This document shows, piece by piece, positions 1 to 4,921 of a stretch of 4,921 nt of DNA (position 1 is the first letter of the stretch; each line of letters starts with the position of its first letter). Made by a program: the position numbers and the translations under genes. The notes under the pieces are model-generated. The model searched no databases. It was not told where the DNA came from and saw nothing but the letters and a program-made list of their open reading frames with translations. This DNA is from a virus (Duplodnaviria; Heunggongvirae; Uroviricota; Caudoviricetes), in IMG/VR virus record IMGVR_UViG_2529293142_000015, positions 1 to 4,921 of that record; one strand, given 5' to 3'.

Positions 1-681
1 CATACTGTTAATCGCGTCATCCTGGACGCAACACATCAGAACCGCATTATTGCAGAGCTGGTTATTCCTCCAGAAACGGGCGGATTCTGGATCCGGGAAA
101 TTGGTGTATTTGATGAGCACGGCGATTTAATCGCGGTGGGCAATACTGCCGAAAGTTACAAGCCAGCCGTTGCCGAAGGGTCCGGACGTGCACAAACATT
201 TCGCACCATTCTGACCGTATCCAGCACTGCCACTGTGGCGCTTACCGTGGATAACACCATGGTGATGGCCACAGTGGATTACGTGGATAACAAACTGAAA
301 GAGCATGAACAGTCACGACGTCACCCGGATGCCTCGCTGACCGCAAAAGGCTTTGTTCAACTCAGTAGCGCCACTAACAGCGATTCTGAAACGCTGGCGG
401 CAACGCCAAAAGCAGTTAAGGCCGCGTATGACCTGGCTAACGGGAAATACACCGCACAGGATGCAACGACAGCACAGAAAGGGATAGTTCAGCTCAGCAG
501 CGCGACCAACAGCACATCTGAAATGCTGGCGGCAACGCCAAAGTCGGTAAAGGCAGCCTATGACCTTGCTAACGGGAAATATACCGCTCAGGACGCTACG
601 ACAGCACAAAAAGGATTGTCCAGCTCAGTAGTGCAACCAACAGCGCATCTGAAACGCTTGCCGCGACACCGAAAGCAGTGA
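1..681 (+). CDS. stf: Side tail fibre protein Stf, 5' portion (5'-partial; truncated by a 1-nt deletion at 613-615, then runs out of frame to TGA at 679-681)
   Basis: Frame 1 is open from nt 1 with no stop, so the true start lies upstream. The translation (..[32 protein letters not shown]..) resembles the conserved N-terminal region of lambda Stf / P2 gpH-type fibres, followed by two 44-aa tail-fibre repeats (..[39 protein letters not shown]). After 614 the frame-1 product becomes nonsense ([21 protein letters not shown]) while frame 3 continues the repeat. Confidence 0.85.
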
Positions 682-700
682 AAGCAGCTAATGATAATGC
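349..700 (+). repeat. Tail-fibre repeat array: two complete 132-bp (44-codon) units at 349-480 and 481-612, plus a partial, frameshifted third unit from 613
   Basis: Direct comparison of the DNA and the translations: units start at exactly 349, 481 and 613 (period 132 nt). The copies share the protein motif but differ at many synonymous positions. Confidence 0.85.
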
Positions 701-1832
701 GAATGGTCGGGTACCTTCTGCCCGTAAGGTGAATGGTAAGGCGCTTTCAGCGGATATAACACTGACGCCGAAAGATATTGGTACGCTTAACTCAACAACA
801 ATGTCATTCAGCGGTGGTGCTGGTTGGTTCAAATTAGCAACGGTAACCATGCCACAGGCGAGTTCTGTTGTTTCAATTACGTTGATTGGTGGCGCGGGAT
901 TTAACGTGGGGTCACCTCAACAGGCAGGTATATCTGAACTTGTTTTGCGTGCAGGTAATGGTAATCCGAAGGGGATTACTGGTGCTTTATGGCAGCGCAC
1001 ATCGACAGGGTTTACAAATTTTGCCTGGGTCAATACATCTGGTGATACTTACGATATTTACGTTGCAATCGGAAATTATGCGACTGGTGTAAATATTCAA
1101 TGGGATTATACCAGTAATGCCAGCGTGACTATTCATACGTCACCAGCATATTCTGCTAATAAGCCGGAAGGGTTAACGGACGGTACAGTTTATTCACTCT
1201 ATACGCCATCAGAGCAGTTTTATCCGCCTGGCGCACCAATCCCGTGGCCATCAGATACCGTTCCGTCTGGTTATGCCCTGATGCAGGGGCAGACTTTTGA
1301 CAAATCTGCTTACCCGAAACTTGCAGTTGCTTATCCGTCAGGCGTGATCCCTGATATGCGTGGCTGGACGATTAAGGGCAAGCCCGCCAGTGGTCGTGCC
1401 GTATTGTCTCAGGAACAGGACGGCATTAAATCGCACACCCACAGCGCCAGCGCATCCAGTACGGATTTGGGGACGAAAACCACATCGTCGTTTGATTACG
1501 GTACTAAAACGACCAGTTCATTTGATTACGGCACAAAAACCACAAATAGCGCAGGAGCTCATTCACACAATATACCTGTTGGTCACACTGGCGCGGGGAA
1601 TGGTGTATCAGCCGGTTATAACGCTGCGTTAGGTACTGGTACCACGTCGAGCGCAGGAGGGCATGCTCACAATGTATATATTGGTGCCCATAACCACACT
1701 ATCGGCATTGGTGCTCATGCCCATTCTGTCATTATTGGTCCCCACGGACACACCATCACCGTTAATGCTACGGGGAACGCAGAAAACACCGTAAAAAACA
1801 TCGCATTTAACTATATTGTGAGGCTTGCATAA
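678..1832 (+). CDS. stf: Side tail fibre protein Stf, 3' portion (homology actually begins at 615; 678 is only the first GTG in that frame)
   Basis: Frame 3 from 615 reads [25 protein letters not shown].., a third copy of the tail-fibre repeat, and continues into a distal domain with a [10 protein letters not shown] tandem and many HxH motifs ([33 protein letters not shown]), ending ..[11 protein letters not shown]. This is the pattern of the lambda Stf / T4 gp37-type receptor-binding tip. The stop TAA at 1830-1832 overlaps the tfa ATG. Confidence 0.85.
1470..1550 (+). repeat. 30-bp in-frame tandem repeat (about 2.7 copies) encoding [10 protein letters not shown] in the Stf distal domain
   Basis: Units at 1470-1499 (ggg acg aaa acc aca tcg tcg ttt gat tac), 1500-1529 (ggt act aaa acg acc agt tca ttt gat tac) and a partial copy from 1530 (ggc aca aaa acc aca aat agc). 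The protein is identical between full copies while the DNA differs at wobble positions. Confidence 0.8.
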
Positions 1833-2431
1833 TGACATTCAGAATGAGTGAACAATCACGGACCATAAAAATTTATAATCTGCTGGTCGGAACCAATGAA
1901 TTTATTGGTGAAGGTGATGCATACATTCCACCTCATACAGGTCTGCCTGCAAATAGTACTGATATTGCTCCGCCAGATATTCCAGCTGGCTTCGTGGCTG
2001 TTTTCAACAGTGATGGGGCGTCCTGGCATCTCGTTGAAGATCATCGTGGTAAAACGGTTTATGACGTGGCTTCCGGCGACGCGTTATTTATTTCTGAACT
2101 CGGTCCGTTACCGGAAAATGTCACCTGGTTGTCGCCGGAAGGGGAATATCAGAAGTGGAACGGCATAGCCTGGGTGAAGGATACGGAAGCAGAAAAAGTG
2201 TTCCGGATACGGGAGGCGGAAGAAACAAAAAACAGCCTCATGCAGGTAGCCAGTGAGCATATTTCGCCACTTCAAGATGCCGTAGATTTGAATATTGCAA
2301 CAGAGGAAGAAACATCGTTACTGGTGGCATGGAAGAAGTATCGAGTGCTGCTGAACCGTGTTGATACATCAAGAGCACCGGATATTGAGTGGCCAGCTTC
2401 CCCAGTGGAATCAAGGAGTAAACAAGCATAA
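1832..2431 (+). CDS. tfa: Tail fibre assembly protein (lambda Tfa / P2 gpG family chaperone)
   Basis: 199-aa ORF beginning [61 protein letters not shown].., which closely matches my recollection of lambda Tfa. It lies immediately 3' of stf with a TAATG stop/start overlap, and GAGG sits 8 nt upstream of the ATG. Confidence 0.9.
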
Positions 2432-2525: not shown

Positions 2526-3179
2526 ATGAATGTTATTTCATCGTTAAAACAGCTTAACAGACAGCGAAATATTAAAACAAAAAAGATAAAGACGAAGGCC
2601 AGACTGGCATTTCTAAAAATGCGATACAGAAGGAAAACATCATTACAGCCGGATAGTTATAAAACAGTGTGCATTTTCATGCACATGCAAGCCATTGGTG
2701 ACGGCATCGTTACCTCAGGGTTTATTAAACAACTTCAAAAATCCGGTATGGTGGTATATGTGATAGCACCTTCAAGAGTATCATTCCTCTTTACTGACAT
2801 TGTTGGCGTGGATGCCTTTATATCTTACGAGAAAAATAAATTTAACGAACTAAAAGCAAAGATAAAAAAACTGAATGTAGATCTTGTTGTTGACTTCTCA
2901 AATTTTGATAACACAGCGATAACCAGATTGCAAACACTACATTTACTTAGACCTAAACACTCTATCTGTTTTAATCATCCTGCCGTAACTATTTTTGATA
3001 CAAATATAATCGATAATCGTTCCATTCACACATCTGAAAGAATGAAAAAAGTTTTATCTTTACTAAAGATAAAAAATAATAATTATGCTGCAGCGCTTAA
3101 TTTTGACAACAAAATATATGAACCAGCAAATATTGTTGCAAATGAATTCAGGAAAAAAACAAAAATTAGTTATATTTAA
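2526..3179 (+). CDS. Glycosyltransferase family 9 (heptosyltransferase-like), N-terminal fragment; ends out of frame at TAA 3177-3179 after the A7 tract
   Basis: The translation contains ..KTVCIFMHMQAIGDGIVTSGFIKQL.. (compare the GT9 N-terminal strand plus the S.LGD motif of WaaC/WaaF) and ..VDLVVDFSNFDNTAITRLQTLHLLRPKHSICFNH.. (compare the ..DLVIDLQG...S..L....ga..riG.. region). Start chosen at ATG 2526 because AGGG lies 7 nt upstream; the ORF-track start 2466 is TTG, and ATG 2496 and ATG 2619 are alternatives. The region is very AT-rich. Confidence 0.6.
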   Translation: MNVISSLKQLNRQRNIKTKKIKTKARLAFLKMRYRRKTSLQPDSYKTVCIFMHMQAIGDGIVTSGFIKQLQKSGMVVYVIAPSRVSFLFTDIVGVDAFISYEKNKFNELKAKIKKLNVDLVVDFSNFDNTAITRLQTLHLLRPKHSICFNHPAVTIFDTNIIDNRSIHTSERMKKVLSLLKIKNNNYAAALNFDNKIYEPANIVANEFRKKTKISYI

Positions 3180-3702
3180 CCCTTATGGCTCTCAGAATAG
3201 CAGAACCTTATCTGATGAACAGATAAAAAAAGTACTAGCTTACCTTAATAACCTTAAGGGATATCACACAATAGTTTTTAATATGGGAAAACAGATTAAT
3301 CACAATGGATTGGATAATGTGTCTCTATCTCCATTTTCTGATGCCGGATGTTCATTTGCATTGGTTCGCCATGCTGATTTTGTTATAACTGTAGATACTG
3401 CCATTGTACATTTAGCCAGTGCATTAAACATTAGACAATACTGTATATATAATAACAGAATGCATGAAGGAAAATTCGAAAATAATATTGTGTGGGGGCC
3501 AAACAGCAAATTAGCGACTCAACTCACCACATCCGAACATCTAAGGTCTGAAGGGGGCGACGATATGCATAAATTCGACATAATGATCTTAATTAATGCT
3601 ATCAAACAAGATTTGACAAACGATATACCGAATTACCACTCGGATTTAGGTTGTAAAAATAGTTCCAGAAACCCAGAATTAGAAAGTAGCAATTCTTTAT
3701 AA
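3085..3702 (+). CDS. Glycosyltransferase family 9 (heptosyltransferase-like), C-terminal fragment (homology clear from about 3160; 3085 is only the first ATG in this frame)
   Basis: The translation ..KKQKLVIFNPYGSQNSRTLSDEQIKKVLAYL..GYHTIVFNMG.. and ..FALVRHADFVITVDTAIVHLASALNIRQYCIYN.. parallels the WaaC/WaaF C-terminal domain (..AKFVVSVDTGLSHLTAALDRPNITVYG.. / ..CKAIVTNDSGLMHVAAALNRPLVALYG..). It is in the +1 frame relative to the N-terminal fragment. Removing one A from the A7 tract fuses the two into one GT9-sized protein of about 390 aa from ATG 2526 (about 360 aa from ATG 2619). Confidence 0.6.
   Translation: MLQRLILTTKYMNQQILLQMNSGKKQKLVIFNPYGSQNSRTLSDEQIKKVLAYLNNLKGYHTIVFNMGKQINHNGLDNVSLSPFSDAGCSFALVRHADFVITVDTAIVHLASALNIRQYCIYNNRMHEGKFENNIVWGPNSKLATQLTTSEHLRSEGGDDMHKFDIMILINAIKQDLTNDIPNYHSDLGCKNSSRNPELESSNSL
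3153..3159 (+). repeat. A7 homopolymer at the junction of the two glycosyltransferase reading frames (followed by C and an A5 run)
   Basis: Sequence ggAAAAAAAcAAAAAtta. The upstream frame reads R-K-K-T-K-I-S-Y-I-stop; the +1 frame reads G-K-K-Q-K-L-V-I-F-N-P-Y-G-S. A6 or A9 would give an in-frame fusion (..NEFRKKQKLVIFNPYGS..). Confidence 0.75.
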
Positions 3703-3755
3703 AGTAGAAACCTCAACAGTTTTATCAGGACCTACGATATATTATATAACAACAA

Positions 3756-3789
3756 GCCGCCCATTACCCAATATGAGGGTATTGGCGGC
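3756..3789. terminator. Imperfect GC-rich hairpin between convergent genes; candidate bidirectional or minus-strand terminator
   Basis: The left arm gccgccc-attaccc (3756-3769) pairs with gggtatt-ggcggc (3777-3789): 12 of 14 positions pair, including 6 consecutive GC pairs, around a 7-nt loop aatatga. It lies in the 96-bp gap between the GT9 stop (3702) and the gpU stop (3799-3801). A U-rich run follows only on the minus-strand transcript (rc of 3741-3755 is ttgttgttatataat). Confidence 0.3.
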
Positions 3790-3798
3790 AATGTAAAA

Positions 3799-4293
3799 TC
3801 AGAACAGTCCTTTAACTGAACTGGCCGCGCTGTTAAGAGATGATGTCACCTTATCTTTGAAGCCGGACAGCATATCGCTGAACGATGAGGATTGCAGGCG
3901 CTCCCGCAAATCCTCATCACAGCGTTCAAGGGTCAGTGAAAATTCTATCTTTTTCGCCTTACCGTAGCGATCAAACTCGGAACGGGTCGTATTCGTTCCG
4001 GTCAGGACATACATGCCGTAAATCTGCCCGACACCATCAATCAAAGGCCAGGGTCGTCCTGTATACGCCTGCGTGGTCAGCAGCGACAGCGACACTTCGC
4101 CACCTGTAATTTCAGGATAAAGCACACCAGAAAGCACGATGCGATCATCACCTGCACCGATATACTGCCAGCTTGCTGAACGGTTAACGCGTTCATTTTT
4201 CACATGCCGCCAGCTTTTGTTTTGCTGTAACTGCTGATGCGGCAGCGTGCGCAGCTCAAAAACAAACATGCCGTAGATCATCATCATGGCCAT
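3799..4293 (-). CDS. Phage tail protein, P2 gpU family
   Basis: The 164-aa ORF (MAMMMIYGMFVFELRTLPHQQLQQNKSWRH..LSGVLYPEITGG..LIDGVGQIYGMYVLTG..KIEFSLTLERCDED..) matches the pattern I recall for P2 gpU. GAGGAG sits 2 nt before the first ATG (4293) and 8 nt before the second (4287), so the true start is probably 4287. The upstream gene's stop overlaps the SD (TGAGGAG), indicating coupling. Confidence 0.75.
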   Translation of the reverse strand: MAMMMIYGMFVFELRTLPHQQLQQNKSWRHVKNERVNRSASWQYIGAGDDRIVLSGVLYPEITGGEVSLSLLTTQAYTGRPWPLIDGVGQIYGMYVLTGTNTTRSEFDRYGKAKKIEFSLTLERCDEDLRERLQSSSFSDMLSGFKDKVTSSLNSAASSVKGLF

Positions 4294-4299
4294 GACTCC

Positions 4300-4921
4300 T
4301 CAATCTTTATCGTAAAAACTTCCACGCCCGGCACGGGCGCGCCGTTCCATTTCTGCCCTGATCATTTCACCGACCAGTTTCGCCAGTTCGCGGGGATTCT
4401 GCGTAACAACGTTATGCAGATGAACATGAATTTCACCACCAAATCCGGAGGCAACAGGCTCCCGGTTACGGAAAGTTGCAGGAACTGATGCCACTGGCGA
4501 TCGTATGGCCTCCGCCACCGGGCGGGAGCTGGCCGCAACAACAGGGACCAGCGCCGGAGGCAGCGGAGCCGGAACTACGGGTGTGATATTAATTGCGGGG
4601 GCAGGCTTACTGACCTGCGCAATCTTCCGCTCCTGCCACTCCCCACGAACAGCAAGTGCGCGGGGCAGGTTCTTAAAGACAATATCGCCGGGGCCAATGC
4701 GTTTTTTCGTCTCATCAACCAGCTTACCTGTGTTATCAGCAATTTTGCTGAGTCTGCGTAGCGTCCCGGTATTGCTGTCTGTGAGCGGTTTGTTGTCTTT
4801 GGGCTTATCACCTCCGGTGCCATTGCCATTTTCCACAGGCTTCGGCGGATTGATTTTCGCCAGGTCCCCCTGAAGCAAGGCAACCTTGTCCTGAAGAATG
4901 GCCGCACGCTGTGCGTCTTCG
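4300..4921 (-). CDS. Tail tape-measure protein, C-terminal portion (P2 gpT-like; 5' end beyond the right window edge)
   Basis: The minus-strand frame is open from the window edge (EDAQRAAILQDKVALLQGDLAK..) to TGA at 4300-4302; the 4878 'start' in the ORF track is only a TTG. It sits immediately upstream of and coupled to the gpU-like gene, as for T-U in P2-type tail operons. It has a Pro/Ala-rich low-complexity stretch and a GC-rich composition. The assignment rests on synteny and general character, not a specific motif. Confidence 0.6.
   Translation of the reverse strand, partial: EDAQRAAILQDKVALLQGDLAKINPPKPVENGNGTGGDKPKDNKPLTDSNTGTLRRLSKIADNTGKLVDETKKRIGPGDIVFKNLPRALAVRGEWQERKIAQVSKPAPAINITPVVPAPLPPALVPVVAASSRPVAEAIRSPVASVPATFRNREPVASGFGGEIHVHLHNVVTQNPRELAKLVGEMIRAEMERRARAGRGSFYDKD

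What the first reader, a model, noticed from the sequence alone, without database searches (positions are those of the whole stretch)
3700..3801. Convergent module junction: the P2-type tail operon ends after gpU with no gpD, abutting the AT-rich cargo
In P2-type phages the order is T-U-D, all on one strand together with the fibre genes H and G. Here T-U run on the minus strand towards a plus-strand stf-tfa-GT9 unit, and where D would be expected there is a 96-bp gap containing a GC-rich imperfect hairpin (3756-3789) and an AT-rich quasi-palindrome (3737-3748). This suggests a mosaic recombination joint, a truncated P2-like remnant next to a lambdoid fibre module, or an inversion. The hairpin may stop convergent transcripts colliding.
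Basis: inference. Interest (0 to 1): 0.55.

Follow-up and report, generated by a model that had tools for sequence, protein, structure and literature searches.

The report
Normal P88-type phage tail gene junction
The "missing gpD" junction is the normal gene order of a common group of P2-related E. coli prophages (phage P88 type), where two tail operons meet tail to tail at a terminator hairpin and gpD lies a few kilobases away, so it is ordinary.

Summary
The GT9 gene stops at 3702 and gpU, on the minus strand, stops at 3799-3801. The 96-bp gap between them holds a hairpin at 3756-3789. No gpD follows U.

Bases 3792-4921 are 98.3% identical to the inducible phage P88 (Peduoviridae, Xuanwuvirus). 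P88's complete genome reads J-I-H-G on one strand, then U-T-E'-E-FII-FI on the other, then gpD and ogr. E. coli M9, UTI89 and O111 prophages have the same order. So do about 40 of the 43 loci in 20 or more Enterobacterales genera whose U is at least 55% identical to the window's; the rest are too short, too degraded or rearranged to read. Only distant relatives (U 46% or less, P2 included) have the colinear T-U-D order. gpD is therefore relocated, not lost.

The fibre is a P2-type gpH by its N-terminus. Only its distal part and tfa resemble lambda stf-tfa.

The hairpin is most likely the terminator of the FI-to-U operon. A hairpin sits just after U's stop in most relatives, with unrelated sequences and two compensatory pair changes.

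The G|U interval is a variable cargo slot. It holds GT9 here, acetyltransferases or an invertible fibre segment elsewhere, and usually nothing.

Low interest; already known.

The parts
1..1832 (+). Tail fibre gene (gpH orthologue). It is cut at the window's 5' end and is broken in this copy by a 1-nt deletion near 619 (frames 1-681 and 678-1832).
   Evidence: PF12571 N-terminal fibre domain, PF03406 repeats and PF07484 collar domain. The window starts inside the H gene of the aligned M9 prophage. Bases 355-2397 and 1223-2402 are 89-91% identical to lambdoid stf-tfa.
1832..2431 (+). Tail fibre assembly gene (gpG / tfa).
   Evidence: PF02413 Caudo_TAP, E 2.4e-44.
2526..3702 (+). AT-rich cargo gene for a glycosyltransferase family 9-like protein. 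In this copy it is frameshifted by a 2-nt deletion in an A-rich run near 3159.
   Evidence: PF01075 at 27 bits. Intact 392-aa copies exist in M9 and MEI7BO1-21, and the only indel is at 3159. GC is 26-37% against 49-53% in the flanks. The cassette is present in 49 of 5426 E. coli genomes.
3703..3798 (.). The 96-bp convergent intergenic gap between the 3' end of the cargo gene and the 3' end of gpU.
   Evidence: Homology with other prophage variants breaks at 3763, 3781, 3792 or 3797.
3756..3789 (-). Imperfect GC-rich hairpin beginning 9 nt after the gpU stop codon. Proposed intrinsic terminator of the FI-FII-E-E'-T-U late operon.
   Evidence: Folding gives -20.3 kcal/mol, z = -4.5. A hairpin sits just after the U stop in every E. 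coli variant and in most other genera, with unrelated sequences. Two compensatory pair changes separate it from the 98224-type hairpin.
3737..3755 (-). U-rich tail of the proposed terminator (5'-UUGUUGUUAUAUAAUAUAU on the minus-strand RNA).
   Evidence: Sequence and fold of the minus strand.
3799..4293 (-). gpU tail protein gene.
   Evidence: PF06995, E 1.5e-38. phrog_76 tail protein. 98.3% nucleotide identity to P88.
4300..4921 (-). 3' end of the tape measure gene (gpT). It runs off the window.
   Evidence: 98.3% nucleotide identity to the P88 tape measure gene. Annotated as tape measure in every E. coli match.

Best explanation
The window covers the place where two late tail operons of a P88-type P2-family prophage meet tail to tail. 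In this lineage the FI-FII-E-E'-T-U block lies in the opposite orientation to P2. The V-W-J-I-H-G operon, followed here by a GT9 cargo gene, therefore converges on the 3' end of gpU. gpD sits beyond FI and is transcribed divergently from it, towards ogr. The 96-bp gap is the shared 3' region. Its hairpin, followed by a U-rich tract on the minus-strand RNA, most likely terminates the FI-to-U transcript. That would stop it reading antisense into the cargo and fibre genes. The interval between tfa and U is a variable slot that takes accessory cassettes. Shown: the gene order, its conservation, the presence of gpD, the hairpin and its positional conservation. Inferred: that the hairpin terminates transcription, and how gpD is transcribed.
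For: 1. Identity to P88. Bases 3792-4921 are 98.3% identical to P88. P88's complete genome has H-G on one strand, U-T-E'-E-FII-FI on the other, then gpD.
2. P88 and the related phiSM are inducible or active temperate phages (abstract; PMC6456863), so this order is compatible with a viable virus.
3. Same order in whole E. coli prophages: M9, 98224, O111 11128 and UTI89.
4. Same order in about 40 of the 43 GTDB species loci with U at least 55% identical, from Salmonella to Xenorhabdus. The remaining 3 are too short, too degraded or further rearranged to read. All loci with U at 46% or less that can be read, P2 included, are colinear T-U-D.
5. gpD is a full 366-369 aa ORF with PF05954.
6. P88-type U is found in 1346 of 5426 complete E. 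coli genomes.
7. The hairpin is significantly stable. Four hairpin types, unrelated or only partly homologous in sequence, lie 9-12 nt after the U stop in E. coli. Most other genera show canonical GC stems with T-runs.
8. Two double compensatory changes (G-C to A-T and C-G to T-A) separate the window-type from the 98224-type hairpin. An 8-nt loop deletion in L065 leaves the stem intact.
9. An Ogr-type TGT-N12-ACA box and a -10-like hexamer are conserved upstream of FI at P2-like spacing (77-88 nt against 83 nt in P2). The late promoter therefore travelled with the block.
10. The slot content varies: nothing, invertase plus alternative fibres, acetyltransferase, or GT9.
Against: The window itself ends inside T, so FI, gpD and ogr of this particular genome were not seen. 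The fibre and GT9 genes both carry frameshifts, so this copy may be decaying, or the frameshifts may be sequencing errors. One close relative, MEI7BO1-21, is a deletion remnant. The U-tract after the hairpin is interrupted by G residues, and the simple terminator scan did not report this hairpin, since its stem is imperfect. On the plus strand no U-tract follows the hairpin, so how the H-G-GT9 transcript ends is unexplained. A few relatives (L007, L021/22, L037-39) show no convincing hairpin in the first 70 nt after U. There are no transcript data.
Confidence: 0.88

Rival explanations
1. The junction is a recent local recombination joint: a truncated P2-like remnant that has lost gpD, fused to a fibre module from a lambdoid prophage.
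For: The distal fibre and tfa are 89-91% identical to lambda-type stf-tfa. The window carries two frameshifted genes. One relative, MEI7BO1-21, is a deletion remnant.
Against: The identical arrangement occurs in the complete inducible phage P88 and in whole prophages, and in about 40 loci across many genera. gpD is present in full in all of them. The fibre's N-terminus is P2-H type and continues J-I-H in relatives. Even the MEI7BO1-21 remnant keeps U through FI, gpD and ogr.
Confidence: 0.04
2. The FI-to-U block is a programmed invertible segment, flipped by a site-specific invertase in the way the Mu G or P1 C segments are, and the window caught one orientation.
For: P88, UTI89 and several other loci carry a DNA invertase gene in exactly this interval, next to an invertible alternative-fibre segment.
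Against: The orientation of FI-to-U relative to J-I-H and gpD-ogr is the same in nearly every locus of the clade, with or without an invertase. The window and M9 have no invertase gene in the slot. No inverted repeats flank the block in M9. The invertase-associated segment in P88 covers only the alternative fibre and tfa genes.
Confidence: 0.02
3. The hairpin is not a terminator. It would instead be a leftover recombination or insertion scar, or an RNA-stabilising 3' structure belonging to the GT9 cassette, with no role in ending the U transcript.
For: The hairpin always travels with the GT9 cassette: 48 genomes cover the whole cassette query, which includes it, and 48 span the GT9-to-U junction. 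The U-tract is imperfect and the scanning tool did not call the site. The breakpoints between slot variants fall inside or next to the hairpin, at 3763, 3781 and 3792.
Against: Loci with no cargo at all, and loci with unrelated cargo, also have a hairpin just after the U stop, often a textbook terminator. Compensatory changes preserve the stem. The two roles are not exclusive: each cassette may bring or keep a terminator at its edge.
Confidence: 0.12

Closest known systems
Escherichia phage P88 (Peduoviridae, genus Xuanwuvirus; NC_026014) and P88-like prophages such as those of UTI89, O111:H- 11128 and Citrobacter phage phiSM
   Same: U and the T 3' end are 98.3% identical. The fibre and tfa operon converges on the 3' end of U in the same way. 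FI-to-U is inverted relative to P2, and gpD and ogr lie beyond FI. A hairpin follows the U stop.
   Different: P88 and UTI89 carry an invertible alternative fibre/tfa segment and a DNA invertase in the G|U slot, and their hairpin is a perfect two-way terminator (A-run, stem, T-run). The window has an AT-rich GT9 gene and an imperfect hairpin with a U-rich tract on the U strand only. The window's fibre and GT9 genes are frameshifted.
Bacteriophage P2 (Peduovirus P2), F operon FI-FII-E-E'-T-U-D
   Same: The same genes in the same internal order from FI to U. An Ogr-type TGT-N12-ACA activator site lies upstream of FI at similar spacing. An accessory-gene slot follows G, occupied by Z/fun in P2.
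   Different: In P2 the operon is colinear with V-W-J-I-H-G, and D starts at the last base of U. Here the block is inverted, D is detached from the operon, and U is the last gene, followed by a terminator-like hairpin. P2 U is only 46% identical in protein.
P2-type tailocin loci with a hypervariable fibre region (xenorhabdicin xnp1/xbp1 and relatives)
   Same: Glycosyltransferase genes often sit in the variable region next to the fibre genes, and LPS tailoring for self-resistance has been proposed (PMC13280938). The Xenorhabdus and Photorhabdus loci recovered here have the same inverted FI-to-U order.
   Different: Those are headless tailocin loci with many fibre genes. The glycosyltransferases described there were not shown to be GT9 relatives of this protein. 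The E. coli relatives here are complete prophages.

Membership tests
P88-type (Xuanwuvirus-like) P2-family prophage | Tail genes U and T closely related to those of P88 | tested here: met
   Bases 3792-4921 are 98.3% identical to P88.
P88-type (Xuanwuvirus-like) P2-family prophage | The H-G operon converges on the 3' end of U on the opposite strand | tested here: met
   Fibre, tfa and GT9 on the plus strand, U and T on the minus strand. Same in P88, M9, UTI89 and O111.
P88-type (Xuanwuvirus-like) P2-family prophage | FI-FII-E-E' upstream of T on the same strand, with gpD and ogr divergent beyond FI | not testable with these tools
   The window ends inside T. The feature holds in every close relative fetched, and gpD there matches PF05954.
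Canonical P2 order (Peduovirus P2) | D immediately follows U on the same strand, and the F operon is colinear with H-G | tested here: not met
   No D frame follows U, and the orientation is convergent. P2 reference.
Rho-independent (intrinsic) terminator | Stable GC-rich stem-loop directly after the last gene | tested here: met
   -20.3 kcal/mol, z = -4.5, beginning 9 nt after the U stop.
Rho-independent (intrinsic) terminator | U-tract immediately 3' of the stem | tested here: inconclusive
   The minus strand reads UUGUUGUUAUAU, which is U-rich but interrupted. The plus strand has no U-tract. The simple scan did not call the site.
Rho-independent (intrinsic) terminator | Structure conserved at the same position in relatives despite sequence change | tested here: met
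   Four E. coli hairpin types and many canonical terminators in other genera. Two compensatory pair changes.
Rho-independent (intrinsic) terminator | Transcript 3' ends at the site | not testable with these tools
   No transcript data were available.
Invertase-driven invertible segment (Mu G / P1 C type) | Invertase gene next to the segment and inverted crossover repeats at both ends | tested here: not met
   There is no invertase in the window or in M9's slot. No flanking inverted repeats around FI-to-U. The orientation is invariant across nearly all loci.
Lambdoid side tail fibre module (stf-tfa) | Whole fibre gene, N-terminus included, of lambda Stf type within a lambdoid tail cluster | tested here: not met
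   Only 355-2402 resembles lambdoid stf-tfa, at 89-91%. The N-terminus is PF12571, and the first 200 residues of the M9 counterpart are 98% identical to P88 gpH.
Prophage cargo (moron) cassette | Atypical base composition, variable presence at a fixed slot, and its own transcription signals | tested here: inconclusive
   Composition and variable occupancy are met. No convincing promoter was found in 2432-2525. The hairpin travels with the cassette.
Glycosyltransferase family 9 (LPS heptosyltransferases) | Significant match to the family profile, and to a named equivalog | tested here: inconclusive
   PF01075 scores 27 bits, just above its cut-off of 22, over part of the domain. RfaQ and heptosyltransferase I score 23-25 bits, far below their cut-offs of 467 and 185. 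No relative with a solved structure was found by sequence.

The most novel reading that the evidence does not exclude
The inversion may have rewired the clade in two ways. First, it split gpD from the F operon and placed it back to back with FI. A single dyad-symmetric Ogr box could then switch on both divergent late promoters: its centre lies 77-88 nt from the FI ATG and 68-71 nt from the gpD ATG in 7 of 8 genera. Second, it created a convergent, terminator-bounded G|U slot that collects envelope-modifying cargo next to the fibre genes, namely GT9 and hexapeptide acetyltransferases. Such cargo could change the LPS receptor and protect lysogens from phages or tailocins of their own kind.
Probability: 0.3. 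Interest if true: 0.4.

Novelty: already known. Interest (0 to 1): 0.14.

Why it matters
It matters little as a discovery. The arrangement is the deposited, annotated gene order of an ICTV-classified genus, and P88-type U occurs in about a quarter of complete E. coli genomes. It is useful for annotation: a P2-like tail operon that ends at U facing the fibre genes should not be read as truncated or mosaic. PGAP often shortens gpD in this group, which can add to the impression that gpD is missing. The G|U slot is a good place to look for lysogenic-conversion genes.

Tried and rejected
- Exact source of the window: none of the records listed in the searches of complete RefSeq E. coli genomes matches the whole window exactly. 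The best whole-window match is 96.8%. The junction itself is 100% identical in MEI7BO1-21, which is a deletion remnant and therefore not the same locus.
- gpD fragment in the gap: I looked for a gpD 5' fragment in the 96-bp gap as an inversion scar. There is none, and gpD is whole elsewhere.
- Inverted repeats flanking the FI-to-U block: none at the boundaries.
- Rfam scan of 3500-4000 at a permissive threshold: no match.
- Sigma-70 promoter scan for the GT9 gene: nothing in 2432-2525, and the window-wide counts are no higher than in shuffles.
- Exact TGT-N12-ACA search in the E. coli FI-gpD spacer: no exact match. The box appears only with one mismatch, and was recognised by alignment with other genera.
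- Literature: the P88 paper, the C. rodentium prophage paper, the Dickeya tailocin paper and a tailocin review do not mention the inversion. I found no paper that discusses it explicitly among those searched.
- GT9 function: no solved relative by sequence, and only a PHROG of unknown function. No isolated phage in the collection carries it, apart from a 23%-identical Campylobacter phage gene.
- I did not use the large protein database searches or structure prediction, because the answer did not depend on them.

Full report
**What is in the window.** The plus strand carries three genes.
- A tail fibre gene runs from 1 to 1832. It has a PF12571 N-terminal fibre domain, PF03406 repeats and a PF07484 collar domain.
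- A fibre assembly gene runs from 1832 to 2431 (PF02413).
- An AT-rich gene runs from 2526 to 3702 and gives a weak match to glycosyltransferase family 9 (PF01075, 27 bits).

The minus strand carries gpU at 3799-4293 (PF06995, E 1.5e-38) and the 3' end of the tape measure gene at 4300-4921.

The gap 3703-3798 is 96 bp. The only inverted repeat in 3650-3850 is 3756-3764 / 3781-3789. As RNA, 3750-3800 folds at -20.3 kcal/mol with z = -4.5 against dinucleotide shuffles. GC falls to 26-37% across the GT9 gene and returns to 49-53% in gpU.

**Where the sequence belongs.** Bases 3792-4921 are 98.3% identical to Escherichia phage P88 (Peduoviridae, genus Xuanwuvirus) and to several related phages. 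P88's complete annotated genome reads as follows:
- V-W-J-I-H-G on one strand;
- an invertible alternative fibre/tfa pair and a DNA invertase;
- U-T-E'-E-FII-FI on the opposite strand;
- a 366-aa tail protein on the first strand again, with an ogr-like frame after it (found by tblastn) and then hok.

That 366-aa protein, and its 369-aa counterpart in E. coli M9, match PF05954 Phage_GPD. P88 was induced from E. coli K88 and lyses other strains. The related phiSM of Citrobacter rodentium is an active temperate phage (abstract; PMC6456863). This gene order is therefore that of viable viruses.

**The order in E. coli.** The whole window aligns at about 96% to prophages of several strains. In strain M9 the context is a complete P2-like prophage with this order: J-I-H-G, GT9, then U-T-E'-E-FII-FI reversed, then gpD, a PIN-domain gene, ogr and hok. 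Strains 98224, O111:H- 11128 and UTI89 show the same architecture with other content between tfa and U.

P88-type U is found in 1346 of 5426 complete E. coli genomes. The canonical P2 U-D junction is found in 1570. Both arrangements are common.

**How old the arrangement is.** A scan of one genome per GTDB species with the gpU protein returned 55 loci. I placed P88 and P2 reference proteins on them by tblastn.
- Forty-three loci have U at least 55% identical to the window's, and about 40 of them show the P88-type order. They come from Salmonella, Serratia, Enterobacter, Kosakonia, Trabulsiella, Symbiopectobacterium, Mixta, Pantoea, Izhakiella, Kluyvera, Klebsiella, Yokenella, Edwardsiella, Citrobacter, Morganella, Providencia, Photorhabdus and Xenorhabdus.
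- The remaining three could not be read. L025 and L047 show only T and U and are too short or too degraded. L012 is further rearranged.
- All loci with U at 46% or less that can be read are colinear: J-I-H, then FI-FII-T-U-D. They come from Idiomarina, Acinetobacter, Chitinimonas and Halomonas, and they include P2 itself.

The inversion of FI-to-U is therefore an old event fixed in a large Enterobacterales clade, not something that happened at this locus. No inverted repeats flank the block, and its orientation is the same in nearly every locus. It is not a programmed switch.

gpD is relocated, not missing.

**The fibre.** The window begins about 60 codons into H of the aligned M9 prophage. 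Its N-terminal domain is the P2-H type. The first 200 residues of the M9 counterpart are 98% identical to P88 gpH. From about 355 onward the fibre and tfa are 89-91% identical to side tail fibre genes of lambda and other lambdoid phages. Exchange of distal fibre parts between P2, lambda, Mu and P1 is long established (my own knowledge of the literature on the P2 H and G genes). The unit is the end of the P2-type baseplate and fibre operon, not a lambdoid module placed beside a remnant.

**The gap and the hairpin.** On the minus strand the gpU stop is followed by 9 nt, the hairpin, and then UUGUUGUUAUAUAAUAUAU.

An alignment of the junction in seven E. coli prophages and phages shows common sequence only from the U stop region onward. 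Every variant nevertheless has a hairpin 9-12 nt after the stop:
- the window type;
- a half-related type in strains 98224 and 2015C-3107;
- an unrelated type in O111 and CRE1540;
- a perfect A-run, stem and T-run in P88 and UTI89, which could terminate transcripts from both directions.

The window type and the 98224 type differ by two double compensatory changes (G-C to A-T and C-G to T-A). A third strain has an 8-nt loop deletion that keeps the stem.

In other genera the first 70 nt after U usually contain a textbook terminator. Examples are GCGGGC...GCCCGC plus T-rich tails in Enterobacter, Kosakonia and Trabulsiella, and clear stems with T-runs in Morganella, Providencia, Yokenella and Kluyvera. 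A minority show nothing convincing (L007, L021/22, L037-39).

In the colinear relatives the same position is occupied by the start of D. I conclude that the hairpin is the terminator that ends the FI-to-U operon. This rests on position and comparison. I have no transcript data, and the simple scan did not call the site because its stem is imperfect. On the plus strand no U-tract follows the hairpin, so the end of the H-G-GT9 transcript is unexplained. Rfam has no match here. The AT-rich quasi-palindrome is simply part of the U-rich tail.

**The slot.** In most genera tfa and U face each other across only 60-160 bp. The interval is filled in some lineages:
- by an invertase with alternative fibre genes (P88, UTI89, L024, L034, L042, L044);
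- by a hexapeptide-repeat acetyltransferase on the U strand (O111, 98224, CRE1540, 2015C-3107);
- by 1.7-4 kb of content I did not identify (L029, L031, L037, L040, L052);
- by GT9.

The GT9 cassette is in 49 of 5426 E. coli genomes, nearly all at 99% identity, never on plasmids, and as a single copy in all but one genome. In 48 of them the match covers the whole query, hairpin included, and 48 genomes span the GT9-to-U junction. No isolated phage in the collection carries the gene, though a PHROG of unknown function matches it at 806 bits. Its assignment to GT9 is weak.

A recent study of P2-type xenorhabdicin loci reports frequent glycosyltransferase genes in the variable fibre region and proposes LPS tailoring for self-resistance (PMC13280938). 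That is a reasonable lead for this gene, but nothing here tests it.

**How gpD may be expressed (outside the window; inference).** A TGT-N12-ACA-like box is conserved upstream of FI. It is exact in Kosakonia, Kluyvera and Photorhabdus and has one mismatch in E. coli. Its centre lies 77-88 nt from the FI ATG, against 83 nt for the annotated pF activator site of P2. A -10-like GATTAT follows at conserved spacing. The late promoter therefore moved with the block.

The same box centre lies 68-71 nt from the gpD ATG in 7 of the 8 genera measured. Because the site is a dyad, one bound activator could serve both divergent promoters. This is a hypothesis only.

**Verdict.** The feature is the ordinary gene order of a known phage genus and of a very common E. 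coli prophage type.

Noticed in passing
window 3150-3165: The GT9 gene is split into two frames (2526-3179 and 3085-3702) by a 2-nt deletion plus one substitution in an A-rich run, compared with the intact 392-aa copies in M9 and MEI7BO1-21. This is the only difference from the MEI7 copy. It could be a real pseudogene, slippage in the A-run, or an assembly error.
   Followed up: partly
window 610-625: The fibre gene loses its frame in the third PF03406 repeat. The sequence 'ggattgtccagctc' reads as if one G were missing, compared with the two preceding repeats. The gene continues in another frame from 678.
   Followed up: partly
L001 29474-30740 (E. coli M9); also L004, L005, L006: RefSeq PGAP annotates gpD in many P88-type prophages as an 801-nt 'VgrG/Pvc8 family' gene, plus a spurious 93-nt antisense pseudogene. 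A full 369-aa ORF with a Shine-Dalgarno sequence starts at 29631 and matches PF05954. This under-annotation could make gpD look truncated or absent.
   Followed up: yes
L001 29553-29570 and equivalent positions in L009, L017, L024, L027, L029, L038, L044: A conserved TGT-N12-ACA-like box lies in the FI-gpD divergent spacer at nearly fixed distances from both start codons: 77-88 nt to FI, and 68-71 nt to gpD in 7 of 8 genera. A conserved CGCGCGCGTG block lies on the gpD side. This may be one Ogr site serving two divergent late promoters.
   Followed up: partly
L003 16373-31100 (E. coli MEI7BO1-21): A deletion derivative of the GT9-carrying prophage lies between btuC and ihfA. It keeps int, a repressor-like gene, a 138-nt fibre fragment, tfa, GT9, U through FI, gpD, ogr and hok. 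It lacks the head, lysis and baseplate genes.
   Followed up: no
L012 10600-16400 (Trabulsiella odontotermitis): This is the one locus of the clade in which I and the H N-terminus lie on the same strand as U. They are bracketed by two invertase genes, which suggests a further and larger invertase-associated rearrangement.
   Followed up: no
L005 8291-8863, L004 8304-8849, L063, L064, L065: In O111, in two further serogroup-designated strains (O157:H7, O103) and in many other E. coli listed, the same slot appears to hold a hexapeptide-repeat acetyltransferase, annotated as serine acetyltransferase. It is on the U strand, downstream of the hairpin. There are two versions only 36-37% identical, and one copy (L065) is disrupted by IS1.
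   Followed up: partly
window 4322-4341 (minus strand): A strong terminator-like hairpin (8 pairs, 7 of them G-C) followed by GAAGTTTTTA lies inside the last codons of the tape measure gene, just before the gpU start. It is the top hit of the terminator scan. It may be chance or an internal attenuator.
   Followed up: no
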